A DNA stretch of 64,000 nt from a virus. The notes under the pieces are model-generated. The model ran no database searches, was not told the DNA's origin, and saw nothing but the letters and a program-made list of their open reading frames with translations. Position numbers and translations under genes: made by a program. The stretch is taken from IMG/VR virus record IMGVR_UViG_3300045988_118736; one strand, 5' to 3'. Positions 1,083 through 16,440 of this stretch are shown piece by piece (the stretch's first letter is position 1; each line of letters starts with the position of its first letter).

Positions 1083-1593
1083 AAAAAAAGGTTAGGCGCG
1101 TACCGTTAAACGCGCTTGTACGCCGTTGTCAGTGGGTGCACGTCCCGCGTATGCTTTAGACTGAAGCTGACAAAACAGAGAGTTATTTTACATATTGGAG
1201 ATAGATATACCGGTATCGAAGCCGTTGGCAATTAAAAATACGGTATTGCTGCATGAACTGCACTAAATAAGTGTGGTTTATGTTAGGTATGTTAGTACAG
1301 TTTGGAAAACATACCGTTGTACGCGGTTTATCTCCAGACCGAAACGTGTCTTACTTGCCTACACGTAAAATAGGACAAGGCTGTAGATTAAATTACAGGG
1401 TATAAACATGTAGCCTACCATGTAGGAGCGTGATATATCAAAGCGCAAGGACACAATCGCCTTTATTTGTGGCTAAGTTGTGTAGCAGACGGAAAATATA
1501 ATAACAACATAGTACGGGCCTGTACACAAGAACTACGTACTAATTACGGGCTGTTGGTTGTAGCATAAAATTCGTATAGAATAGGAATGCGTG

Positions 1594-1610
1594 TTCGGTT
1601 CGATTCCGGA
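1594..1610 (+). promoter_or_regulatory. T-arm-like hairpin TTCGG-TTCGATT-CCGGA, 34 nt upstream of ATG 1642
   Basis: 5-bp stem with tRNA T-loop sequence; one of three copies with compensatory stem changes. Confidence 0.6.
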
Positions 1611-1641
1611 GCAACCTCTAAATTATAAACAATATAATAAC

Positions 1642-1812
1642 ATGGGAAAGAAAGCAATGATCAACGCTTTAACTGAAGCGTTCAATAAATCTAAAAACAG
1701 TTGCGTAAAAATAACATTGCGTAACTATATCGAGACGGTTGAAGCACTAAGCGAAAGTGAGTACAAAGAGGCGGAAGGTTTCTATATTGAAGCACTTAAC
1801 CGCTGGGGTTAA
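1642..1812 (+). CDS. hypothetical small protein (56 aa; track ORF 1591 trimmed to ATG 1642)
   Basis: upstream extension overlaps the T-arm hairpin, so the internal ATG is the likely start. Confidence 0.4.
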   Translation: MGKKAMINALTEAFNKSKNSCVKITLRNYIETVEALSESEYKEAEGFYIEALNRWG

Positions 1813-1834
1813 TCATAATTAAAGCATAAAGAAA

Positions 1835-2041
1835 ATGGAAAGGAAATTTAAATCTCACATGGTAGACGTTCGCGGTCTGTCCAGGAAAGAAGCTAAAGAA
1901 AAGCGGAAAAGAGCGTATCGTGAATTTATGTTGTATCGTGATCTCAAAGAAGCGTATCATGCCGATACAGGAAAGGACAAATGCAAGCGTAAAGTTCATA
2001 CATCACGAACATACGTCAAGGAAAACATAAACAGCATTTAA
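1835..2041 (+). CDS. small basic protein (68 aa), possible nucleic-acid binding
   Basis: K/R-rich; followed by clear terminator. Confidence 0.5.
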   Translation: MERKFKSHMVDVRGLSRKEAKEKRKRAYREFMLYRDLKEAYHADTGKDKCKRKVHTSRTYVKENINSI

Positions 2042-2048
2042 ATAGGAG

Positions 2049-2084
2049 TAGGGTTGTTCCGAACGTCGGAGCAGCCCTATTTTC
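2049..2084 (+). terminator. rho-independent terminator after 1835..2041
   Basis: 8-bp stem TAGGGTTG/CAGCCCTA enclosing inner TCCGA-ACG-TCGGA hairpin, then TATTTT. Confidence 0.7.
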
Positions 2085-2145
2085 GTATCCTACTCTTTCT
2101 ATTTACGGGTAGGTATTCTGAGAGTGAACGGCGGATGTGTGCCAT

Positions 2146-2238
2146 ATTGGTCTAAAACGAAACTAAAATAGGATAGTTTGGATATAATGCCGGTATTTTG
2201 TCTATATATTGTCGTTAAAATTGGTCTAAAACGAAACT
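2146..2238. repeat. 19-mer ATTGGTCTAAAACGAAACT repeated at 2146-2164 and 2220-2238
   Basis: exact direct repeat, period 74 bp, in non-coding DNA. Confidence 0.85.
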
Positions 2239-2393
2239 TTAGGCGGTTTTCTGACCCAAAATAGGGCGTCGGATGCCGCCTTTTTCGTCTCTATGGATTG
2301 AAAGTTGGGCTTATTGTATTTTTCTTAAAAATAATGTATTCCTGATTATCAATTAGTTAGGTTTTATAATACCCGTATTTTCGGACATACTTA

Positions 2394-2579
2394 TTGTATT
2401 TTTTTTGTTTTATGTGGTGGTTTTTATTAGTTGCTGACTTGTATTTTTTATCGGTTGGTATCCGTTCTATGTTGGAGTATGGAGCAGATCAGTATAATGT
2501 TGTAATGGTCTTTTGCTTTTCGTTTTTGGCTTTGATTATAGGCTTAAATATCTATATTGATAGGAGGAGCAGACGGTAG
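2394..2579 (+). CDS. small hydrophobic protein (61 aa), doubtful
   Basis: ORF in T-rich non-coding-looking region; two hydrophobic segments. Confidence 0.2.
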   Translation: MYFFCFMWWFLLVADLYFLSVGIRSMLEYGADQYNVVMVFCFSFLALIIGLNIYIDRRSRR

Positions 2580-2732
2580 GGCGTGGGCTGAAGACTCTCT
2601 ATTCTCTCTATGGAATGATATTATCTCTAAACACCCCACACTTCATGCCAGAGTATAAGCTTGTAGCGCTCTCCGTATGCCTGTAGTGAGGCCGAGAGCG
2701 CAGTTTCTATGCAGAAAGTCGGAGGATCAGCC

Positions 2733-2758
2733 GGGGTTGGGGAGAGGGAGAGGGAGGG
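2733..2758 (+). other. G-rich purine tract GGGGTTGGGGAGAGGGAGAGGGAGGG (potential G-quadruplex)
   Basis: five or more G-runs of at least 3 with 1-3 nt loops, immediately upstream of tandem array. Confidence 0.5.
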
Positions 2759-2765
2759 CACTCTC

Positions 2766-2967
2766 TTCCAACAAAATTAAGACTTACAGCGTTTTTAAAA
2801 CAGCATTTTGTAGTTTCTTCCAACAAAATTAAGACTTACAGCGTTTTAAAACAGCATTTTGTAGTTTCTTCCAACAAAATTAAGACTTACAGCGTTTTAA
2901 AACAGCATTATATAGGATTTTCCAACAAAATTAAGACTTACAGCGTTTTTAAAACAGTATTCTGTAG
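2766..2967. repeat. tandem array of four 51-60 bp units with 40-bp conserved core TTCCAACAAAATTAAGACTTACAGCGTTTT(T)AAAACAGCAT (iteron-like)
   Basis: units start 2766, 2818, 2869, 2929; core contains palindrome GTTTTAAAAC (perfect in units 2 and 3); variable 11-20 bp spacers. Confidence 0.9.
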
Positions 2968-3040
2968 GTAAGAGTTAAGGACTGTATTATGTGAGTATTT
3001 TTTTTCAATCGGAATGTATAACAATTAAAACATAAACAAC

Positions 3041-3205
3041 ATGAACGTATATGACTTTGCGCCTGACTTAGATTTGAGTAAGGAGGTAGAAGGTTCTATT
3101 TTTGGGGTGAAAGGAATAGAAGGTAGTGATGGTATAGTATATGCTAAGGTAGTTAGCTGTGAAGAAGTTAAGGATTACAGTTGTGATAGGTGTATTTTTT
3201 TATGA
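3041..3205 (+). CDS. small Cys-motif protein (54 aa), paralog of 5128..5376 and 24185..24382
   Basis: not in ORF track (<60 aa); shares FAPDLDLSKEVEGSIF and CDRCIF motifs with paralogs. Confidence 0.45.
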   Translation: MNVYDFAPDLDLSKEVEGSIFGVKGIEGSDGIVYAKVVSCEEVKDYSCDRCIFL

Positions 3206-3393
3206 TTGTTATAAGGATAAATGTTTGTTATCGCGTAGTGTTAGTTGTGTAGATGGAGACTGGCTTTGTAGGTACGAACAGGCTGCCATAGAGGGGGAGT
3301 AGGCGGCGCCTTGGGCTAAGGCCTGCGGTTGTAGGTGGAACGTAGGTCGGAGCAGAGCCGGGACAGTTTATTGTGGAACGTAAAAAGAAAAAA

Positions 3394-3658
3394 GATGGAA
3401 AGAACAATACATTATATTTGGATAAATTGGATATCTTATACAGGTTCGAAAAGTAGTAGACTAATAAGCAACAGGTTTATGCCGGTATCAGATGCCAAAG
3501 AGATGATATTAAGAACGAGTGCTAAAGAATTGCTTAAACACAGACCGAGTTGGTTAAAGGACTGTGTTCGTATTAGTGTAAGCGCACAGGATATTACGAC
3601 CGGAGAGATCCTGTATAGAAGAACTATAAACATAAAGAAGAAGGAGGAAATAATATGA
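3394..3658 (+). CDS. hypothetical protein (88 aa; track 3335 trimmed to ATG 3394)
   Basis: upstream part is GC-rich hairpin DNA; ATG 3394 follows an A-rich stretch. Confidence 0.4.
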
Positions 3659-3735
3659 AAAAGGCATTTAAGATATTTTCTATTATGTTTGTCATAGAAA
3701 TAGTGCTGATAGCTATTTTAGATGATATGGCGTAA
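3655..3735 (+). CDS. tiny hydrophobic peptide (26 aa), speculative
   Basis: ATGA overlap with preceding stop; single TM-like segment; below track cutoff. Confidence 0.2.
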   Translation: MKKAFKIFSIMFVIEIVLIAILDDMA

Positions 3736-3778
3736 GTGAGAAAAATTTCTTCATTAATTTTCTTATGCTTTAGACAGA

Positions 3779-3814
3779 ATGCTCCCGTCTGAGAAGATCG
3801 GAGCATTTGCTTTA
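3779..3814 (+). terminator. intrinsic terminator, GNRA-capped (ATGCTCC / loop with TCT-GAGA-AGA / GGAGCAT then TTGCTTTA)
   Basis: 7-bp stem plus T-rich tail after 3655..3735. Confidence 0.65.
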
Positions 3815-3834
3815 TGGGATTCATGGTGCGGTAG

Positions 3835-3851
3835 GCTGGTTCGATTCCGGC
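3835..3851 (+). promoter_or_regulatory. T-arm-like hairpin GCTGG-TTCGATT-CCGGC, 34 nt upstream of ATG 3883
   Basis: same motif as 1594 and 5083; stem differs but stays complementary. Confidence 0.6.
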
Positions 3852-3882
3852 GATCTCACACAACATTAAAATAGGGAAGAAC

Positions 3883-4287
3883 ATGTTAAAAGAAGAATTT
3901 GAAGAACTGATTAAAAGGGAGGTAAACGAAAATCAGTATAAAAACATAGAAACGGCATACGAGGCTTTGCCGGAGTATATGGATAAGATGTATTTAGCAA
4001 GTGCTATTTCAAATGATATTGGGAAAGCTATTAATGTCTTATCGTTTTTAGGATCGTATATAAGCGAGTTAATGGGTTCGATAATAATCGAAAGGCAAAA
4101 GGTGGAATCATGTGCCTATGATTTAATAAATAAATCGCATGAGGAGGATGACTTGAAAGCAAGAGAGATTGCCGTGCGATTAATAGGAGAGGGGGAAACA
4201 GTGGCATACACAGTAAAAGAAGGGCTGCCATTGTGGGAACAAGATAAAAAGTTTATAATAGAATTAATGAAGGAGGAAAGAAAATGA
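3883..4287 (+). CDS. hypothetical protein (134 aa)
   Basis: ATG 34 nt after T-arm hairpin; overlaps next gene start (ATGA). Confidence 0.55.
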   Translation: MLKEEFEELIKREVNENQYKNIETAYEALPEYMDKMYLASAISNDIGKAINVLSFLGSYISELMGSIIIERQKVESCAYDLINKSHEEDDLKAREIAVRLIGEGETVAYTVKEGLPLWEQDKKFIIELMKEERK

Positions 4288-4625
4288 AAGACGGTATTGT
4301 ATTGCATCCAGAGCATGGGTTGAATCCATCCATAGAACTATGCATAGTATGTGGCGAAGAGATGGGGATTGCTTTATTAGGGAATAACATCAAAGGGCAG
4401 GCGCCGCATCATATATGCACGGGAGAAATATGTGACAATTGCAAAAAGATAATAGATGACGGAGGTTGTTTTATTATCGAAGTCGAGGATGGATCAGATC
4501 AAAAGAATCCGTATCGTACAGGGAGATATTGCGCGATAAAGAAAGAAGCAGCAAAGAAAATACTTGGACAGGAACATAGTGTTGTGTACATGGAAAAGTC
4601 TGCATACAGTCAAATAATACCATAA
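4284..4625 (+). CDS. zinc-ribbon protein (113 aa)
   Basis: CIVCGEE...CTGEICDNC paired CxxC motifs. Confidence 0.55.
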   Translation: MKDGIVLHPEHGLNPSIELCIVCGEEMGIALLGNNIKGQAPHHICTGEICDNCKKIIDDGGCFIIEVEDGSDQKNPYRTGRYCAIKKEAAKKILGQEHSVVYMEKSAYSQIIP

Positions 4626-4639
4626 AAATAAAGAAAGAT

Positions 4640-4954
4640 ATGTTTACAAAAGAAGAGCGATTATTCATTTGGAAAAAGGTATATGAGATGATTGATTGGC
4701 AAGAGGATGGGGAATACATATGTGTTGCGTTAAGAAATGTAGTGTTTATGTATTTCAAAAAACATAAAAATATTTATGAGTTTCGTTCAGACGAAATGGT
4801 GAGAATATATTTCCCGGAATTGGAGGAAAAGAAAAGTATGGCTACAGAACCAGAAGAAGAATGGAGGATATATGGATGGTTTGGCAGTATTAGTCCAGAA
4901 ACGAAGGAGGTGAGGCTAAATATCGTAAAAGACATTATAAAAGAATTAGAATAG
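4640..4954 (+). CDS. hypothetical protein (104 aa)
   Basis: ORF followed by terminator 5001-5038. Confidence 0.5.
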   Translation: MFTKEERLFIWKKVYEMIDWQEDGEYICVALRNVVFMYFKKHKNIYEFRSDEMVRIYFPELEEKKSMATEPEEEWRIYGWFGSISPETKEVRLNIVKDIIKELE

Positions 4955-5000
4955 TATTTTTGTTAATCTATTTTATTCATCAAATTAAGTTTTGGGTTTT

Positions 5001-5038
5001 GGCATGTCGGTTCGTGAGAATAGGCATGCCTATTTCTG
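5001..5038 (+). terminator. intrinsic terminator GGCATG...(TTC-GTGA-GAA)ATAGG...CATGCC then TATTTCTG
   Basis: 6-bp GC stem, GNRA tetraloop on 3-bp upper stem, T-rich tail; follows 4640..4954. Confidence 0.65.
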
Positions 5039-5082
5039 TATCATAGAGGGATGGCGCGGCGTGCCGGTATGTATGTGTCGGT

Positions 5083-5099
5083 TCTGGTTCGATTCCAGG
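5083..5099 (+). promoter_or_regulatory. T-arm-like hairpin TCTGG-TTCGATT-CCAGG, 31 nt upstream of ATG 5128
   Basis: third copy of GGTTCGATTCC motif. Confidence 0.6.
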
Positions 5100-5127
5100 A
5101 ATCTCACAAACAATAAATCATAATCAT

Positions 5128-5376
5128 ATGGAAGTAATAACATTCAGTCCGGACATGGATTTATCTTCTAAAGAAGCAGGAGATGTATTTAGATTAAAAT
5201 TGTATGGCATAGAGTATGATGTCAAAGTAGTTGGTGATGACGAAGATCCTCTTATGTTCTGCAAAGATTGTATATTTTTTAACAACTCCGAACGGTGTTC
5301 ACTCTCAGAATCGCAAGACTGGTGCTTAAAAAAGCAAGTTGTTTACTGTAAAATAAGACATGATGGGGGAATTTAA
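5128..5376 (+). CDS. small Cys-motif protein (82 aa), paralog family CKDCIFF
   Basis: FSPDMDLSSKEAGDVF and CKDCIFF match 3041 ORF. Confidence 0.5.
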   Translation: MEVITFSPDMDLSSKEAGDVFRLKLYGIEYDVKVVGDDEDPLMFCKDCIFFNNSERCSLSESQDWCLKKQVVYCKIRHDGGI

Positions 5377-5557
5377 TGCGAAAGACGCCAATTTCTTATG
5401 GCGTCAAATTGGTAGGATTGATGGGGTGATAGAAACTCTGAACCGTACCGAAGGAGAGATGCCGGAAATTATAGCCGGAGTGCTAAAAAGAATAAGAGAC
5501 GATATAGATAAGTTTGTAGATAATAAAACAAAAGATTATGAGAATATACAAGAATGA
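5360..5557 (+). CDS. hypothetical protein (65 aa)
   Basis: short overlapping ORF in operon. Confidence 0.35.
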   Translation: MMGEFNAKDANFLWRQIGRIDGVIETLNRTEGEMPEIIAGVLKRIRDDIDKFVDNKTKDYENIQE

Positions 5558-5768
5558 TATTATAAAGGCGTCAGCGATAAGCACCGGCGCAGACAGAGGT
5601 GTGTTACTGTGTTCAATAACAGATTCGGGATTCACGTCTATAGCGGGCGTAATATCGGCTGTTAAGGATAAGTTACCAGGCAAAGATCATAAGAAGATGA
5701 TTTTTGAAATACGGAATGATGGAAGAAACGAATATGGCAGATATAATAATTGTGGAGGAAAAATATGA
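5538..5768 (+). CDS. hypothetical protein (76 aa)
   Basis: short ORF; ATGA overlap with next gene. Confidence 0.35.
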   Translation: MRIYKNDIIKASAISTGADRGVLLCSITDSGFTSIAGVISAVKDKLPGKDHKKMIFEIRNDGRNEYGRYNNCGGKI

Positions 5769-5977
5769 AATACAGAGGTCTGTTGCTCCCTATGATATTA
5801 GCTGCAATGTGCGGAGATGATGCCTTTGTGCTAAATACTAAAAGGGGAAAAGGAATGCAATCTACATATAGAAGAGAAAAGATTGTCAGAACAGAAAAAG
5901 AATTTGATATTAATGGCACTAAAGTAATGGCATACTCAAGAAAGGATGCCATTAAAAGATTAAAACATAAGAAGTAG
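5765..5977 (+). CDS. small secreted or lipoprotein-like protein (70 aa)
   Basis: GGAGG RBS before ATG 5765; N-terminus MKYRGLLLPMILAAMCG looks like a signal peptide. Confidence 0.45.
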   Translation: MKYRGLLLPMILAAMCGDDAFVLNTKRGKGMQSTYRREKIVRTEKEFDINGTKVMAYSRKDAIKRLKHKK

Positions 5978-6143
5978 AAAACGGATTTTTATGTTAATGT
6001 TAGTTTTTTCATTTTTATTGAAAGGAGCGCCGGCCTGTGAAGGTATGCGCTCTTTGTATTTGTATAATGCTTGACATACTCCCATCGCTAAAGCAAACGG
6101 GATTCTTGGATACAAACGTACGGAACCCCCCGGTTTTACAATC

Positions 6144-6187
6144 GTTGGAATCACCCGCACTTTCCAACTCGGAAATGCCCTTCCGAG
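6144..6187 (+). other. twin hairpins sharing arms (GTTGGAA/TTCCAAC and CTCGGAA/TTCCGAG) in 300-bp intergenic region
   Basis: two 7-bp stems read directly; candidate structured RNA. Confidence 0.4.
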
Positions 6188-6278
6188 GTCGCAAGACAGG
6201 GCAAATATAATGTTTAATTATCATCTGACACATAAATGGGATCAGTATTACCATTAAATAACATAAAACAATAATAAT

Positions 6279-6533
6279 ATGACAGATAATAACATAGACG
6301 TGAATATCGTACCTGTAAAGAATGGCGCGAAACGTGTTGTGGTATCATATTACCATTATTCACGCAAGGACAAAAATCACATGAGTTCCCAAACGGATTA
6401 CGTGTGGGAAACAAAGAATGAAGAAATGTTTAAATACTTTGAGGCCAGGAGGACAAAAGTATTTTATAGTCAGATTCGTGCCATGTGTAGATTCTATGGC
6501 AAGAAAAATGTACGTAAATACAAAAAGCTATGA
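6279..6533 (+). CDS. hypothetical protein (84 aa)
   Basis: ORF; overlaps next start. Confidence 0.5.
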   Translation: MTDNNIDVNIVPVKNGAKRVVVSYYHYSRKDKNHMSSQTDYVWETKNEEMFKYFEARRTKVFYSQIRAMCRFYGKKNVRKYKKL

Positions 6534-7339
6534 TATTAAAAACAACAACCAACGAATTTTGTTTCATTAACGTAAGTTTTTATGAAACAATAGCAGACCC
6601 GCGTCATTTCTTTTCACAGGAATATGATGAGATGCCGGAATATGAAGAAGAATCGGATTTTGATTTTGATTCTTATTGCAATAAGTTTGTTCCTTTTGTA
6701 CAGGAATGGGCGAATGAGGTGGGTGAACGCCTTTATGAATATGGTGTGAATAACATAAAGGTAATATCGGTAGGACATCCAAAAGAGTACAATTATGATA
6801 CTGATTGGATGGATGTAAGGATAGAGTTTTGTGATGAATGGAGGCAAAAGATGTTATCTAACATTGGTAAGATTGTTAATGATGATAAATGCAAGAAGTA
6901 TGCGGAGGCTAATTATCGGTCGGTACCAGGATACATCTTTTTAAGGCCTGAAGATTTAAAGGAATTTGAAAAGAAAATAATAGAAAGAAAGTCGGATTCT
7001 GGATATGATGTAACAATATTATTAAACATGTATCTAACTTTGGCTTTTGTAAAAGAATTTGGATTTAAAGCCGGAGAAGCATGGAGTGAAATAACAGAAT
7101 ATGCTTACGGATGTTTGTCGTATTCTGATTTTGCAACAACAGAGATGCTTATACCAGAAGGTTCGGAGCATTTATTCAAAGACATTTACACGGCAAAGGC
7201 CGACGAATTATATCATCATGTCCTGGATAAATTCGGATGGGCGTGGCGTGATCCGAAATATAAGTCAGAAACAGAATTATGCGCAATGTTAAAATGGGCA
7301 AAAGAAAAAGGCTTGACCATTGAAGAGTTAAGTATTTAA
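6530..7339 (+). CDS. hypothetical protein (269 aa)
   Basis: long ORF; acidic N-region; no motif recognised. Confidence 0.55.
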   Translation: MILKTTTNEFCFINVSFYETIADPRHFFSQEYDEMPEYEEESDFDFDSYCNKFVPFVQEWANEVGERLYEYGVNNIKVISVGHPKEYNYDTDWMDVRIEFCDEWRQKMLSNIGKIVNDDKCKKYAEANYRSVPGYIFLRPEDLKEFEKKIIERKSDSGYDVTILLNMYLTLAFVKEFGFKAGEAWSEITEYAYGCLSYSDFATTEMLIPEGSEHLFKDIYTAKADELYHHVLDKFGWAWRDPKYKSETELCAMLKWAKEKGLTIEELSI

Positions 7340-7352
7340 TTGTTAAACATAA

Positions 7353-7384
7353 GGCAGTAGTGGTGCGTGAGTATAGGTGCTGCC
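7353..7384 (+). terminator. hairpin GGCAG...(TGC-GTGA-GTA)TAGG...CTGCC after 6530..7339 (weak T-tail)
   Basis: same GNRA-capped architecture; AT-rich tail only. Confidence 0.4.
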
Positions 7385-7402
7385 GTTAAAATATTTTATA
7401 AG

Positions 7403-7651
7403 ATGAAAAAAGAAGAGATTCAAACTATTTTATACACAATCAAAGAAGGAGACAGTATTAAGATCAAAGTACAAGACAAAAGTGAAGAGATAAGACTGCG
7501 GGATCATGTAAGAAGAGTACAGAAATACGGATACAGGTTTTGTTTGTCTCATTTACATGATGGAATTTTCTATCTGGAGAAGTTGAAAGAAGGGGACAAG
7601 GATAAATACTATAGAGTAATAAACAGAGGAAATGGAAAGACCGGAGTATAA
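7403..7651 (+). CDS. hypothetical protein (83 aa; trimmed from 7367)
   Basis: track start lies inside terminator hairpin; ATG 7403 in frame. Confidence 0.45.
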   Translation: MKKEEIQTILYTIKEGDSIKIKVQDKSEEIRLRDHVRRVQKYGYRFCLSHLHDGIFYLEKLKEGDKDKYYRVINRGNGKTGV

Positions 7652-7925
7652 TAAGCTACGCAAAATGGCTAAGACTACTCCAGGTCTGATAGTGGACGAG
7701 GTGCAAAACATGATGCGTGTATCGCTATACGATAATGGGGAACTTAAGAAGGTGGTAGTAGTAATGAAATGCGATTCTTTTTTACAGTCAAAAAGTAACA
7801 TAGAAAAGATAATGTTATTATCATCTTCTATAGAAGACAGAAAAAACAAAGAAAAAAATAAAACAAAATCAGAAAATGAACAGAATAACAAAAATAAGAG
7901 AAGAAATAGGAGGAAAACAGGTTGA
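7632..7925 (+). CDS. hypothetical protein (97 aa) with K/N/E-rich low-complexity tail
   Basis: ORF; basic C-terminus. Confidence 0.45.
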   Translation: MERPEYNKLRKMAKTTPGLIVDEVQNMMRVSLYDNGELKKVVVVMKCDSFLQSKSNIEKIMLLSSSIEDRKNKEKNKTKSENEQNNKNKRRNRRKTG

Positions 7926-8259
7926 TTTGACCTTTTACGGGCGCTTTTGCAGCCTTATCGAAGGTGATAGAAAGATAATACTAAGGGCGATAAAAAACGG
8001 TCGTAAAAAAGGCGTAATCGGAGCCATTCAGCCTGGGAGACATGATAGAATTTGGGCCACATGGTCTATTGCTTTTGATGATCTGAAGGTAGGGGATACG
8101 GTAGAGTTCAGTACATCTGGAAAATACAATCCCGGATTTCATGCTACGGAAAAGTATGTAGGGTGTGTAGAATGGATAAAAGGGTCGGAATGTGCGATAA
8201 AAACCGGTAAGGGAATAGCAGTAGTATTAATTAAACACATAGAAAGGGTGGTAAAATGA
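7876..8259 (+). CDS. hypothetical protein (127 aa)
   Basis: ORF in operon. Confidence 0.5.
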   Translation: MNRITKIREEIGGKQVDLTFYGRFCSLIEGDRKIILRAIKNGRKKGVIGAIQPGRHDRIWATWSIAFDDLKVGDTVEFSTSGKYNPGFHATEKYVGCVEWIKGSECAIKTGKGIAVVLIKHIERVVK

Positions 8260-9403: not shown

Positions 9404-9424
9404 TTTTCCATGTAAGTTAGTTAC

Positions 9425-9461
9425 CGGCACTGGTCTGCGAAGATAGGTGCCGTTTTTTTTA
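9425..9461 (+). terminator. rho-independent terminator CGGCAC...(TCT-GCGA-AGA)TAGG...GTGCCG then T8
   Basis: 6-bp stem plus T8 run after 8993..9403. Confidence 0.8.
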
Positions 9462-9481: not shown

Positions 9482-9733
9482 ATGGAGAAAAGAGACAAGA
9501 AGATGCCTTACGAGGTAGTCATACAGGAAAGAAAAAGAGTGGATTTGTACGGTAACGTAGTGTATTATATCCATTGGTTTGATAAATATGGGTACAATAT
9601 CACAAACGAATGGAAATTCTGGAGCAAGGGTCCGAAAAAGAAATACGATAGAGTTAATCGTTATCTAACGGATAGTTGGTTGAAGGAATACTGTGGGAAT
9701 AACGATTTAAAGATAAGGAGAATAAAGGAATGA
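9482..9733 (+). CDS. hypothetical protein (83 aa)
   Basis: ORF after terminator. Confidence 0.5.
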   Translation: MEKRDKKMPYEVVIQERKRVDLYGNVVYYIHWFDKYGYNITNEWKFWSKGPKKKYDRVNRYLTDSWLKEYCGNNDLKIRRIKE

Positions 9734-15571: not shown

Positions 15572-15775
15572 ATGACCGACAGAGAACTTCTTGAAGAAAA
15601 CAATAAGATGTTAAAGGAAATTCTAAGTTTTGTGAGAAAAGTTGATTCTGCTGAATACAGGGATCATCAAGACTTTATGGAATTTCTTAGAAATGTGGCA
15701 GCCGATATATGGGTGGAATATACGGAGCCTGAACAAAGAGGTAGATTGTTTAATTTAATAAATAAAAAGAAATGA
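15572..15775 (+). CDS. hypothetical protein (67 aa)
   Basis: ORF; ATGA overlap. Confidence 0.4.
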   Translation: MTDRELLEENNKMLKEILSFVRKVDSAEYRDHQDFMEFLRNVAADIWVEYTEPEQRGRLFNLINKKK

Positions 15776-16440
15776 AAACAGTTTTTGATTTAAGCAGAGA
15801 TGAGATTGTGTCATTGACAGACGAAGAGATAAGTCTGTATATAGACAAAGAGCTTGTTGGTAAGGGTATTCCAATTGAAGCTAAAAATTGGAATATAAAG
15901 AACGAAAAAGAAGTCGTGTACCCGGATTGCGGGGTTCCGATATTTGTCATTAAAGACATAGGTGTAGGATTTAGAAAGATAGAGGACGCTACAGAGGTGG
16001 CGAATTTACTGGTCAGGTCCAGGGCTTTTAAGGTGGATTCAAAGTATTTAAACCGATCTTATGAGAGGTTAAACGTCATAAACGAGGGCGTCGTGCCGGC
16101 AGTAGAGGGTTGCGTAGGATACACCAATGAAGAATTTGAAAGAGTTGACAAAGAAAACAATGATCCTGAATCAGCAAAAATAGGATCATTTAATAAGACG
16201 GTAGAGGAAGCCAACAATATAAGAAGCCGAGTGTTGAAATACGTGAACAAGATAAAACGGGAGCGTGCGTACAACATCGACCTTTGCATGACTTTCGAGA
16301 GATATGTTGAGATAGCAGATAAAGATGCGGAGCGGGCTATGGCTTTCTTGAAAGAAGCCTGCCCGTTTAATGAAGAAACAGAAGTCTTTATCAGGAAAAG
16401 ATACAATATGTCTATCGCTGTTGACCCGGAAGAAAATTAA
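15772..16440 (+). CDS. hypothetical protein (222 aa)
   Basis: ORF. Confidence 0.55.
   Translation: MKTVFDLSRDEIVSLTDEEISLYIDKELVGKGIPIEAKNWNIKNEKEVVYPDCGVPIFVIKDIGVGFRKIEDATEVANLLVRSRAFKVDSKYLNRSYERLNVINEGVVPAVEGCVGYTNEEFERVDKENNDPESAKIGSFNKTVEEANNIRSRVLKYVNKIKRERAYNIDLCMTFERYVEIADKDAERAMAFLKEACPFNEETEVFIRKRYNMSIAVDPEEN

What the first reader, a model, noticed from the sequence alone, without database searches (positions are those of the whole stretch)
1594..5130. Recurrent T-arm-like hairpins (GGTTCGATTCC) at a fixed distance upstream of three start codons
Three hairpins at 1594-1610, 3835-3851 and 5083-5099 carry the tRNA T-loop heptamer TTCGATT on 5-6 bp stems. The stem sequences differ (TTCGG/CCGGA, GCTGG/CCGGC, TCTGG/CCAGG) but stay complementary, which points to selection on structure. 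Each lies 31-34 nt upstream of an ATG (1642, 3883, 5128). The following 25 nt are also similar (ATCTCACA.AACA.TAAA in two copies). Two sit just downstream of terminators. I could not close an acceptor stem or find D and anticodon arms, so these are not canonical tRNA genes. They may be tRNA-like processing or punctuation sites (RNase P or RNase Z), 5-prime UTR stability or translation elements, or recognition sites for a phage factor.
Basis: seen in the sequence. Interest (0 to 1): 0.7.

Follow-up and report, generated by a model that had tools for sequence, protein, structure and literature searches.

The report
Truncated tRNA-like punctuation modules in phage
The three hairpins are the T arms of shortened, non-decoding tRNA look-alikes that sit between genes of a gut Bacteroidales phage, each behind a conserved hairpin, and they most likely serve as cutting signals that the host's tRNA-processing enzymes use to divide a long phage transcript into separate messages.

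Summary
GGTTCGATTCC occurs exactly three times, all on the + strand (0.01 expected), each 28-31 nt before an ATG. No tRNA or Rfam family is called.

First, each T arm is followed directly by 5-7 nt that pair with an upstream stretch. This gives an acceptor-like stem stacked on the T arm, so each element is a tRNA-like minihelix without a decoding anticodon arm. Second, c2 and c3 are preceded by a hairpin with a variable stem and a conserved GNRA apex (GGUUC-GUGA-GAAUA); c1 has a diverged version.

The same hairpin lies 2-11 nt upstream of genuine tRNA genes, other tRNA-like minihelices and a hammerhead ribozyme in many Bacteroidales phages, including cultured crAss001. Covariation supports the hairpin and the T stems. 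The T loop is almost invariant.

A cut after the discriminator base would leave leaders of 23, 23 and 20 nt; the commonest Bacteroides 5' UTR is 23 nt.

Best reading: degenerate tRNA genes kept as RNase P / RNase Z punctuation signals. Their tRNA origin is well supported. Cleavage is inferred, not shown. I found no published description.

The parts
1511..1541 (+). c1 upstream hairpin, a diverged member of the hairpin family: stem AGTACG (1511-1516) / CGTACT (1536-1541) with a 19-nt loop.
   Evidence: Read from the sequence. In L035 the stem reads ATCACG/CGTGGT, so one pair changes U-A to C-G and stays paired. Some relatives carry a GCAA tetraloop at the apex. Model R1 does not detect it.
1556..1561 (+). 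c1 acceptor-like 5' strand, GGTTGT. It pairs with 1611-1616.
   Evidence: Present in the single-sequence minimum-energy fold and in the RNAalifold consensus of 10 variants. The fold test reproduces it.
1563..1590 (+). c1 central arm: GCAT/ATGC enclosing ATTC-gtata-GAAT. The loop has 5 nt. There is no anticodon loop and no D arm.
   Evidence: RNAalifold. At the inner pairs U-A, C-G and U-G alternate and pairing is kept.
1594..1610 (+). c1 T arm: TTCGG-TTCGATT-CCGGA.
   Evidence: Orthologues read TCCGG/CCGGA and TCTGG/CCAGA, which is a compensatory change.
1611..1618 (+). c1 acceptor-like 3' strand GCAACC (1611-1616), directly abutting the T stem, followed by T1617 and C1618 at the discriminator position.
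1619..1641 (+). c1 A-rich leader of 23 nt, ending at the ATG at 1642.
   Evidence: Read from the sequence; ORF listed. The commonest B. thetaiotaomicron 5' UTR is 23 nt (PMC7366714).
3778..3807 (+). c2 upstream hairpin: stem AATGCTCC/GGAGCATT, apex CGUCU-GAGA-AGAUC (GNRA loop), followed by ATTTGCTTTAT.
   Evidence: Model R1 scores it 27 bits, E = 3e-4. Relatives have GCGA in the loop.
3815..3821 (+). c2 acceptor-like 5' strand, TGGGATT. It pairs 7 of 7 with 3852-3858, including a G3.U70-type wobble.
   Evidence: All cells pair in 7 variants. One variant changes A-U to G-U. The stem is not chosen by the minimum-energy fold or by RNAalifold.
3835..3851 (+). c2 T arm: GCTGG-TTCGATT-CCGGC. Only 13 nt (3822-3834) separate it from the acceptor 5' strand.
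   Evidence: Orthologues have GTCGG, GTTGG, CCGGT and CCGAC, and all keep pairing.
3852..3859 (+). c2 acceptor-like 3' strand GATCTCA plus C3859 at the discriminator position.
3860..3882 (+). c2 A-rich leader of 23 nt, ending at the ATG at 3883. In relatives the downstream gene changes just after ...ACATTAAAA.
5001..5030 (+). c3 upstream hairpin, the canonical form: stem GGCATGTC/GGCATGCC, apex GGUUC-GUGA-GAAUA, followed by TATTTCTGTAT.
   Evidence: Model R1 scores it 38.7 bits, E = 1e-7.
5048..5053 (+). c3 acceptor-like 5' strand, GGGATG. In this window 5048-5052 pair with 5101-5105. G5053 faces A5100 here but forms G-C or G-U in most relatives.
   Evidence: RNAalifold on 12 variants. The diverged copy in L078 (AGGAATG/CATTCAA) keeps the stem through a G-C to A-U change.
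5063..5082 (+). c3 inserted arm: an 8-bp stem with a 4-nt loop, occupying the place of an anticodon or variable arm. It is absent from L012 and L150.
5083..5099 (+). c3 T arm: TCTGG-TTCGATT-CCAGG.
5100..5107 (+). c3 acceptor-like 3' strand AATCTCA plus C5107 at the discriminator position.
5108..5127 (+). c3 A-rich leader of 20 nt, ending at the ATG at 5128.
7354..7383 (+). A further, weaker hairpin of the same family (apex GGUGC-GUGA-GUAUA). It lies between the stop at 7339 and the next ATG. No tRNA-like element follows.
   Evidence: Model R1 scores it 19.6 bits, E = 0.03. Sequence.
9424..9453 (+). A further hairpin of the same family (apex GGUCU-GCGA-AGAUA), followed by T8 and then an ATG at 9483. 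It looks like an intrinsic terminator. No tRNA-like element follows.
   Evidence: Model R1 scores it 33.3 bits, E = 4e-6. Sequence.

Best explanation
What it is. Each T-arm-like hairpin is the T arm of a degenerate tRNA gene that has been reduced to the part tRNA-end-processing enzymes recognise. That part is a 5-7 bp acceptor-like stem stacked directly on a 5-bp T stem, with a canonical T loop. The D arm and anticodon arm are lost or replaced. The body between the acceptor 5' strand and the T arm is 32 nt in c1, 13 nt in c2 and 29 nt in c3.

The module. Each element sits between cistrons on the sense strand, in this order: stop codon; hairpin with a variable stem and a conserved GNRA apex; 6-17 nt; tRNA-like minihelix; discriminator base; a 20-23 nt A-rich leader; ATG.

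Proposed mechanism (inferred, not shown). The region is transcribed as a long polycistronic RNA. Host RNase P cuts at the 5' end of the minihelix, so the upstream RNA ends in the stable hairpin. Host RNase Z cuts after the discriminator base, because no CCA is encoded. This releases the downstream mRNA with a 20-23 nt Bacteroidetes-type leader. The module therefore punctuates the operon, as genuine tRNAs in the same phages necessarily do.

Side effect. Because the modules are repeated, they also act as crossover points where downstream gene cassettes are swapped or lost.
For: Shown:
1. Three exact copies of the motif, with 0.01 expected by chance.
2. Closing stems abut the T arm. RNAalifold predicts them for c1, c3 and two further families. 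The c4 family has 7 pairs with changes on both sides. In 13 of 17 representatives the minimum-energy fold has the T arm plus a closing stem, against 4.4 expected when the upstream part is shuffled.
3. In 153 orthologues located by anchors outside the T arm, the stems vary and stay paired through G.U intermediates. The loop changes in 5 copies only: 4 at tRNA positions 57 or 60, and 1 at T54. Nucleotide diversity is 0-0.014 in the T loop and 0.013-0.18 in the stem strands.
4. The same hairpin lies 2-11 nt (most often 4) upstream of 33 of 34 distinct genuine tRNA genes; the last gap is 48 nt. It also precedes 72 distinct modules that ARAGORN does not call as tRNAs, falling into about a dozen tRNA-like families, and a hammerhead ribozyme in L130. 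In cultured crAss001 it lies 6 nt before tRNA-Glu.
5. Hairpin covariation over 43 distinct stems: 94% of cells paired against 62% in shuffles; covariation score 0.90 against 0.23.
6. G.U outnumbers A.C 25 to 2 in the stems, so the structure forms on the sense strand.
7. None of the genuine tRNAs in these modules encodes CCA. In the annotated relative, tRNA-Cys ends 17 nt before a CDS start on the same strand.
8. The leaders left by a cut after the discriminator would be 23, 23 and 20 nt. The commonest B. thetaiotaomicron 5' UTR is 23 nt, and A enrichment at -3, -6 and -11 to -15 is reported (PMC7366714).

From established knowledge: an acceptor/T-arm minihelix is sufficient as a substrate for bacterial RNase P and for RNase Z.
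Against: - No RNA-end data exist, so cleavage is inference only.
- For c2, the minimum-energy fold and RNAalifold prefer another pairing for the acceptor 5' strand. Its acceptor pairs almost never vary, so they are uninformative.
- The c3 copy in this window has only 5 acceptor pairs, and its single-sequence minimum-energy fold lacks the closing stem.
- Position 1:72 is mismatched in c1 and c3, and +1 is not G. This is not ideal for RNase P.
- A per-element test that shuffled the acceptor strand was not significant.
- In an unbiased sample, 39 of 50 distinct hairpins are not followed by any T arm. The hairpin therefore has a role of its own, and the tRNA-like part is optional.
Confidence: 0.5

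Rival explanations
1. The minihelices are the product. They would be released as abundant small non-decoding tRNA mimics that act in trans. Possible roles are decoys or sponges for host factors that bind tRNA acceptor/T-arm ends (defence toxins that modify or cut the 3' end, the CCA-adding enzyme, EF-Tu), or substrates for aminoacylation, since c2 and c3 carry a G3.U70-type pair like tmRNA and tRNA-Ala.
For: - Selection keeps exactly the acceptor/T-arm half.
- At least about ten independent families of such elements exist in Bacteroidales phages.
- The G.U pair at the third acceptor position is invariant in the c2 and c3 families.
- The relative crAssE-Sib encodes Ro60/Rsr with a weak YrlA-like hit, Pnkp and a putative nucleotidyltransferase, as annotated in its record.
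Against: - G3.U70 is lost in the diverged c3 copy of L078 and is absent from c1, c4 and the other families.
- The elements are nearly always followed by an ATG within 24-41 nt, which a purely trans-acting RNA would not need.
- This window has no orthologue of the nucleotidyltransferase found in the relative.
Confidence: 0.15
2. The element stays attached to the mRNA as a 5' UTR element. It would be a structured cap that protects the message from 5'-end-dependent decay. It might also insulate the A-rich initiation region from upstream sequence, or recruit ribosomes through tRNA mimicry.
For: - The distance to the ATG is constant and short, and the leaders are A-rich.
- The element lies on the sense strand only, and G.U wobbles show an RNA-level structure.
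Against: - Genuine tRNAs occupy the same position in these phages and must be cut out in order to function.
- Conservation of T-loop positions 54-56 and 58 is not needed for a simple protective hairpin.
- No promoter motif lies at a fixed distance upstream that would place the element at a primary 5' end.
Confidence: 0.12
3. The elements are decaying tRNA pseudogenes and recombination scars with no present function. They would persist only because they hitch-hike with the gene cassettes.
For: - There is a continuum from intact tRNAs through 5'-truncated and anticodon-less forms to minihelices.
- Downstream cassettes differ between relatives right after the modules.
- Overall divergence among the close relatives is low.
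Against: - Stem changes preserve pairing, and almost all loop changes fall at positions that vary in real tRNAs.
- The same half of the tRNA is retained in about a dozen unrelated families.
- Three paralogous copies in one genome keep an identical 11-mer while their stems and bodies have diverged.
Confidence: 0.1
4. The element works at the DNA level as a hairpin-type promoter for a phage RNA polymerase, as in coliphage N4 early promoters, or as an internal B-box-like promoter.
For: - Early promoters of the crAss-like virion RNA polymerase are unknown, and the enzyme is active on denatured DNA (bioRxiv 10.1101/2020.03.07.982082).
- The hairpins sit immediately upstream of tRNAs and genes, and no host-type promoter is visible.
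Against: - G.U outnumbers A.C 25 to 2, so the structure is on the sense strand, not the template strand used by N4.
- About half of an unbiased sample of the hairpins is followed by a U tract, like terminators.
- The invariant G.U pair and the GNRA loop are RNA-type features.
- Yutin et al. report that the epsilon group lacks the usual transcription gene block (PMC7886860).
Confidence: 0.05

Closest known systems
tRNA punctuation of polycistronic transcripts (animal mitochondria), and bacterial or phage tRNA-mRNA co-transcripts cut by RNase P and RNase Z/E
   Same: tRNA-shaped units sit between cistrons on the sense strand. Cleavage at their two ends would define the ends of the neighbouring mRNAs. 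Genuine tRNAs occupy the same positions in related phages.
   Different: The units here cannot decode, because there is no anticodon loop. They are reduced to acceptor plus T arm and are coupled to a conserved GNRA-capped hairpin. Cleavage has not been demonstrated.
mascRNA / MALAT1-type tRNA-like 3'-end processing signals, and minimal acceptor/T-arm minihelix substrates of RNase P
   Same: A non-decoding tRNA-like fold lies just downstream of a stabilising RNA structure. An RNase P cut would leave the upstream RNA with a protected 3' end.
   Different: The setting is bacterial and phage. The protecting structure is a hairpin, not a triple helix. A coding region follows within 20-23 nt.
tmRNA tRNA-like domain and bacterial Y RNA (YrlA) tRNA-like modules
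   Same: Acceptor stem plus T arm without an anticodon arm. c2 and c3 have a G.U pair at the third acceptor position, as tmRNA does. The only Rfam match, which is weak, is to a tmRNA T arm.
   Different: There is no tag reading frame, no pseudoknots and no Ro-binding stem. ARAGORN calls no tmRNA, and there is no YrlA hit in the window. The elements are 45-65 nt long and embedded in operons.
T4-type PeSL cassettes (promoter-early stem-loop repeats that mediate modular gene shuffling; recalled from my own knowledge, not checked in a paper)
   Same: Repeated intergenic regulatory cassettes containing a stem-loop flank small variable ORFs. Relatives differ by which ORF follows the cassette.
   Different: No promoter was found in the cassette, and it contains a tRNA-like element.
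Rho-independent terminators of Bacteroides, for example the terminator of sRNA BTnc231
   Same: The upstream hairpin shares its apex (UUC-GUGA-GAA) with the Rfam consensus of the BTnc231 terminator hairpin. In an unbiased sample about half of such hairpins are followed by a U tract.
   Different: The apex, including an invariant G.U pair and U-A pair, is conserved across very different phages while the stems differ. Many copies have no U tract and abut a tRNA instead.

Membership tests
Canonical tRNA gene | Cloverleaf with a D arm and an anticodon arm carrying a 7-nt loop; detected by tRNA finders. | tested here: not met
   ARAGORN finds 0 genes in the window. The Rfam tRNA model gives no hit at gathering score or at E <= 10. 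The bodies are 32, 13 and 29 nt, with 5-nt or 4-nt loops or none.
Canonical tRNA gene | T arm: 5-bp stem, 7-nt loop with G53, T54, T55, C56, R57, A58 and C61. | tested here: met
   All three copies match. In 153 orthologues, 4 of the 5 loop changes fall at positions 57 or 60 and 1 falls at T54.
tRNA-like minihelix substrate of RNase P / RNase Z (punctuation element) | Acceptor-like stem stacked with no gap on the T stem, about 11-12 bp in all. | tested here: met
   c1 has 6+5 bp. c2 has 7+5 bp. c3 has 5-6+5 bp. Across families, 13 of 17 minimum-energy folds show it against 4.4 expected.
tRNA-like minihelix substrate of RNase P / RNase Z (punctuation element) | No encoded CCA after the discriminator base, which RNase Z requires. 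| tested here: met
   The discriminator C is followed by TAA in c1, ACA in c2 and AAA in c3. Genuine tRNAs in these modules also lack CCA.
tRNA-like minihelix substrate of RNase P / RNase Z (punctuation element) | Intercistronic position, on the sense strand of an operon. | tested here: met
   All three lie between a stop codon and the next ATG on the + strand.
tRNA-like minihelix substrate of RNase P / RNase Z (punctuation element) | Actual cleavage at both ends in vivo or in vitro. | not testable with these tools
   No transcript-end data are available.
tmRNA | tRNA-like domain plus a tag reading frame and pseudoknots. | tested here: not met
   ARAGORN, which also searches for tmRNA, finds none. 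Rfam gives only a 17-nt T-arm match at 9.8 bits.
Y RNA-like (YrlA) | Match to the Rfam YrlA model; location next to rsr. | tested here: not met
   No hit in the window. A weak YrlA hit next to rsr exists elsewhere in the relative's genome, outside this window.
Intrinsic (Rho-independent) terminator, for the upstream hairpins | G+C-rich hairpin followed directly by a U tract. | tested here: inconclusive
   9424-9453 is followed by T8. The c2 and c3 hairpins are followed by interrupted T-rich runs. Most copies that precede tRNAs have no U tract. About half of an unbiased sample has at least 5 T in the next 8 nt.
N4-type hairpin promoter | Hairpin formed on the template strand upstream of +1. | tested here: not met
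   Wobble pairs are G.T on the sense strand, 25 against 2 A.C, so they would be mismatches on the template strand.
Phage attP carrying the 3' end of a tRNA gene | Only the 3' part of a tRNA, with an integrase nearby. | tested here: not met
   The 5' acceptor strand is present, so the minihelix is complete. There are three different copies. The authors of the relative's genome found no integrase (PMC11054128).

The most novel reading that the evidence does not exclude
The GNRA-apex hairpin together with the tRNA, tRNA-like element or ribozyme could form a dedicated RNA-end-formation system of Bacteroidales phages. In this reading the conserved apex (invariant G.U pair, U-A pair, G-N-R-A loop) is the binding site of a still unknown host or phage factor, for example a regulated termination, antitermination or stabilisation protein. 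The released anticodon-less minihelices, some with a G3.U70-type pair, would be functional tRNA mimics that titrate host factors or defence toxins acting on tRNA 3' ends.
Probability: 0.15. Interest if true: 0.85.

Novelty: new variant of a known kind. Interest (0 to 1): 0.6.

Why it matters
- Gene expression in crAss-like and other Bacteroidales phages, the dominant viruses of the human gut, is poorly understood. Promoters, terminators and RNA processing signals are largely unmapped.
- If correct, this gives a concrete and testable rule for how their long operons are divided into messages: a conserved hairpin followed by a tRNA, a tRNA remnant or a ribozyme.
- It explains many 'tRNA pseudogenes' and unannotated intergenic repeats in these genomes.
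- It provides two searchable RNA motifs that the Rfam 15 searches run here did not match.
- It also points to portable parts for engineering Bacteroides: processing insulators that yield the native 23-nt leader.
- The hairpin is present in cultured crAss001, so experiments are feasible.

Tried and rejected
- tRNA and Rfam searches. ARAGORN and Rfam at gathering and permissive thresholds found no tRNA, tmRNA, Y RNA or other family at the three sites.
- Host promoters. The sigma-70 promoter scan is no better than shuffles (75 found against 72.7 expected), and its terminator scan misses these hairpins because their loops exceed 8 nt. I looked by eye for Bacteroides -33 TTTG and -7 TAnnTTTG elements and found none. 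A position-frequency profile of the 60 nt upstream of 48 distinct hairpins shows only T-richness, with at most 0.24 bits per position.
- N4-like template-strand hairpin promoter: rejected on wobble asymmetry.
- attP remnant: rejected, because the minihelix is complete and no integrase is known.
- Coding explanation. ORFs 1591-1812 (GTG start) and 4992-5123 (TTG start) overlap c1 and c3. I rejected them as the explanation because the variation pattern is structural.
- Phage nucleotidyltransferase. The relative's record annotates a 'polyA polymerase / CCA-adding enzyme', but it has no orthologue in this window. The ORF I first suspected, 15772-16440, has no supporting Pfam, PHROG or PDB match.
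- Underpowered test. A per-element test that shuffled the acceptor 3' strand was not significant, because G+T-rich 7-mers find 6 of 7 partners easily. I replaced it with the fold-based test.
- Literature. Searches for the hairpin sequence, for crAss hairpin promoters and for tRNA-like elements in crAss phages found no description.
- Y RNA resemblance. The GGUCCG similarity to the Ro-binding helix of Y RNA is a resemblance from memory only, and I dropped it.

Full report
**Context.** The window comes from an epsilon-group crAss-like phage of the human gut. Bases 2123-8000 are 93.8% identical to phage crAssE-Sib (OR575929, 151 kb). Genes run on the + strand up to about 37 kb, and large virion genes follow on the - strand. 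The starting point that PhageTerm predicted for crAssE-Sib maps to about window position 2122, between the first and second element.

**Observation.**
- GGTTCGATTCC occurs exactly three times, at 1597, 3838 and 5086, all on the + strand. Shuffles give a mean of 0.01.
- The hairpins are at 1594-1610, 3835-3851 and 5083-5099. Each has a 5-bp stem, with one G.U pair, around TTCGATT.
- No other G+C-containing hairpin of this type exists in the 64 kb.
- Each lies 31, 31 or 28 nt before a real ORF start.
- ARAGORN and Rfam call nothing.

**The elements are tRNA-like minihelices.** The bases that follow each T stem pair with a stretch upstream:
- c1: GGTTGT (1556-1561) with GCAACC (1611-1616).
- c2: TGGGATT (3815-3821) with GATCTCA (3852-3858).
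- c3: GGGAT (5048-5052) with ATCTC (5101-5105); one more pair forms in most relatives.

The 3' strand abuts the T stem with no gap, as the acceptor stem does in tRNA. RNAalifold recovers this closing stem without guidance for c1 and c3. It also recovers it for two further families from other phages: the c4 family, with 7 pairs changed on both sides, and the D family. The bodies cannot decode:
- c1 has one arm with a 5-nt loop.
- c2 has 13 unpaired nt.
- c3 has an 8-bp arm with a 4-nt loop, and this arm is simply absent in L012 and L150.

In 13 of 17 representatives of about a dozen families, the minimum-energy fold contains the T arm plus a closing stem. Shuffling the upstream part gives 4.4 expected. 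There are caveats. The c2 stem is 7 of 7 pairs but is not the fold the programs prefer, and its pairs hardly vary. The c3 copy in this window is weak on its own.

**Selection.** I located 153 orthologous copies in IMG/VR relatives using anchors outside the T arm.
- The T stems are polymorphic and stay paired. Examples are TCCGG/CCGGA against TCTGG/CCAGA, GCTGG against GTCGG with CCGGC, and CCTGG/CTGGG against TCTGG/CCAGG.
- The loop changes in only five copies: four at tRNA positions 57 or 60, which also vary in real tRNAs, and one at T54.
- Nucleotide diversity is 0-0.014 in the T loop, 0.013-0.18 in the stem strands and 0.08-0.10 in the bodies.

**The upstream hairpin.** The 'terminators' before c2 and c3 belong to one family.
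- It has a variable 5-9 bp stem, one unpaired position on each side, an invariant G.U pair and U-A pair, two covarying pairs, and a GNRA loop. The commonest apex is GGUUC-GUGA-GAAUA.
- On 43 distinct stems, 94% of cells pair against 62% in shuffles. The covariation score is 0.90 against 0.23, and 0.13-0.18 when the partners are slid. I had selected the copies for at least 4 pairs next to the loop. The outer columns and the two apical pairs were not part of that filter, and they covary cleanly (UA 28 / CG 10 / UG 5, and CG 37 / UA 6; no unpaired cells).
- G.U outnumbers A.C 25 to 2, so the structure forms on the sense strand.
- A covariance model (R1) finds copies in the window at 5001-5030, 9424-9453, 3778-3807 and, weakly, 7354-7383.
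- c1 has a diverged hairpin at 1511-1541 whose stem covaries in one relative.

**Distribution.**
- A scan for hairpin apex plus T arm returned many large gut-phage contigs.
- In 33 of 34 distinct cases the hairpin ends 2-11 nt (most often 4) before a genuine tRNA; the remaining gap is 48 nt. L062 has seven copies in 2.2 kb of a tRNA array.
- 72 further distinct modules carry T-arm elements that ARAGORN rejects. They fall into about a dozen families.
- In L130 one hairpin is followed by a type I hammerhead ribozyme (Rfam Hammerhead_3, 28.5 bits, below its gathering score) and the next by tRNA-Gln.
- Cultured Bacteroides phage crAss001 has the hairpin 6 nt before tRNA-Glu.
- In bacterial genomes the hairpin-plus-T-arm pattern occurs only in Bacteroidales bins and isolates, apart from four chance matches that lack a stem.
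- In an unbiased sample of the 14-mer, 71 of 99 occurrences have a flanking stem of at least 5 bp. Of 50 distinct hairpins, 6 precede tRNAs, 5 precede tRNA-like elements, and 39 precede neither. About half are followed by a U tract.
- The Rfam consensus of the terminator hairpin of the validated B. thetaiotaomicron sRNA BTnc231 has the same apex core (PMC7366714).

The hairpin is therefore a general, terminator-like intercistronic element, and the tRNA-like unit is an optional partner.

**Mechanism.** Genuine tRNAs in these phages lie inside operons, lack encoded CCA, and are followed closely by ORFs. In the annotated relative, tRNA-Cys ends 17 nt before a CDS. crAss001 interleaves tRNAs and CDSs. 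Releasing these tRNAs necessarily creates the ends of the neighbouring mRNAs. The tRNA-like elements keep only what RNase P and RNase Z need. A cut after the discriminator base would leave leaders of 23, 23 and 20 nt. The commonest B. thetaiotaomicron 5' UTR is 23 nt, and the leaders carry A at most of the positions reported to favour translation. A cut by RNase P would leave the upstream RNA ending in the hairpin. This chain is inference; no RNA-end data were available.

**Cassette shuffling.** In relatives, c2 is followed by three different downstream genes and c3 by two. L007 carries a c2/c3 hybrid. This fits recombination between the repeated modules.

**Rivals.**
- Trans-acting tRNA mimics. 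The G.U pair at the third acceptor position is invariant in c2 and c3 but lost in L078.
- An attached 5' UTR element.
- Neutral pseudogenes. The pattern of variation argues against this.
- DNA-level promoters. The strand asymmetry, the U tracts and the lack of any upstream motif argue against this.

**Literature.** Searches found no description of either motif. The phi14:2 study reports no common motif for early promoters. Yutin et al. state that the epsilon group lacks the usual transcription gene block, whereas the crAssE-Sib authors report a weak virion RNA polymerase match.

**Verdict.** The feature is real. It is a new variant of tRNA-based punctuation, coupled to a hairpin motif for which the Rfam and literature searches run here found no description. 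That the elements derive from tRNA is well supported. Processing is the most likely function but is unproven.

Noticed in passing
window 2045-3040: A non-coding stretch of about 1 kb lies between the c1 and c2 operons. It holds four tandem copies of a 51-bp unit at 2764-2967 (93% matches). It also holds a 19-nt direct repeat, ATTGGTCTAAAACGAAACT, at 2146-2164 and 2220-2238, and a terminator-like hairpin at 2263-2282. The PhageTerm-predicted start of the related crAssE-Sib genome maps to about 2122. This may be a packaging or replication origin region.
   Followed up: partly
window 3041-3205 and 5128-5376: Two small ORFs are paralogues (40% identity over 55 aa, E = 2e-7). Only the second is preceded by a tRNA-like module. 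The first follows the tandem repeats.
   Followed up: partly
L130 6981-7200: The order is: conserved hairpin, type I hammerhead ribozyme (CUGAUGA...GAAAC; Rfam Hammerhead_3, 28.5 bits, E = 4e-4, below its gathering score), a second conserved hairpin, then tRNA-Gln. A self-cleaving ribozyme occupies the slot that a tRNA or tRNA-like element takes elsewhere.
   Followed up: partly
L042 22601-22705 (OR575929 72601-72705): A weak YrlA (Y RNA-like) match (28.5 bits, E = 0.002) lies just upstream of tRNA-Tyr, tRNA-Lys and a gene annotated as Ro sixty-related protein in the related phage. This is outside the present window.
   Followed up: partly
L062 8268-8324: A tRNA-like gene scores 47 bits with the Rfam tRNA model, but its whole anticodon arm is replaced by 1 nt. 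Similar anticodon-less forms with tetraloops appear in L171 and L173.
   Followed up: no
L090 1027-1101, L114 5823-5897 and relatives: ARAGORN reports tRNAs with a four-base anticodon (gatg or gagg) directly after the conserved hairpin. They may be tRNAs with 8-nt anticodon loops, or miscalls.
   Followed up: no
L062 8403-8432 and Rfam RF04180: The terminator hairpin in the Rfam model of B. thetaiotaomicron sRNA BTnc231 has the apex CUUCGUGAGAAG, the same core as the phage hairpin. Whether this apex is common in Bacteroides terminators could not be checked.
   Followed up: partly
L265 1683-5807 (Bacteroides phage crAss001): At least 23 annotated tRNA genes are interleaved with small CDSs on one strand, with gaps of a few nt to about 20 nt. 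Only one strong copy of the conserved hairpin was found in the first 50 kb. The rest of the genome was not scanned.
   Followed up: partly
L160 3906-4100: The conserved hairpin is followed by a tRNA-like gene whose 5' and 3' halves are separated by an insert of about 100 nt. This may be an intron.
   Followed up: no
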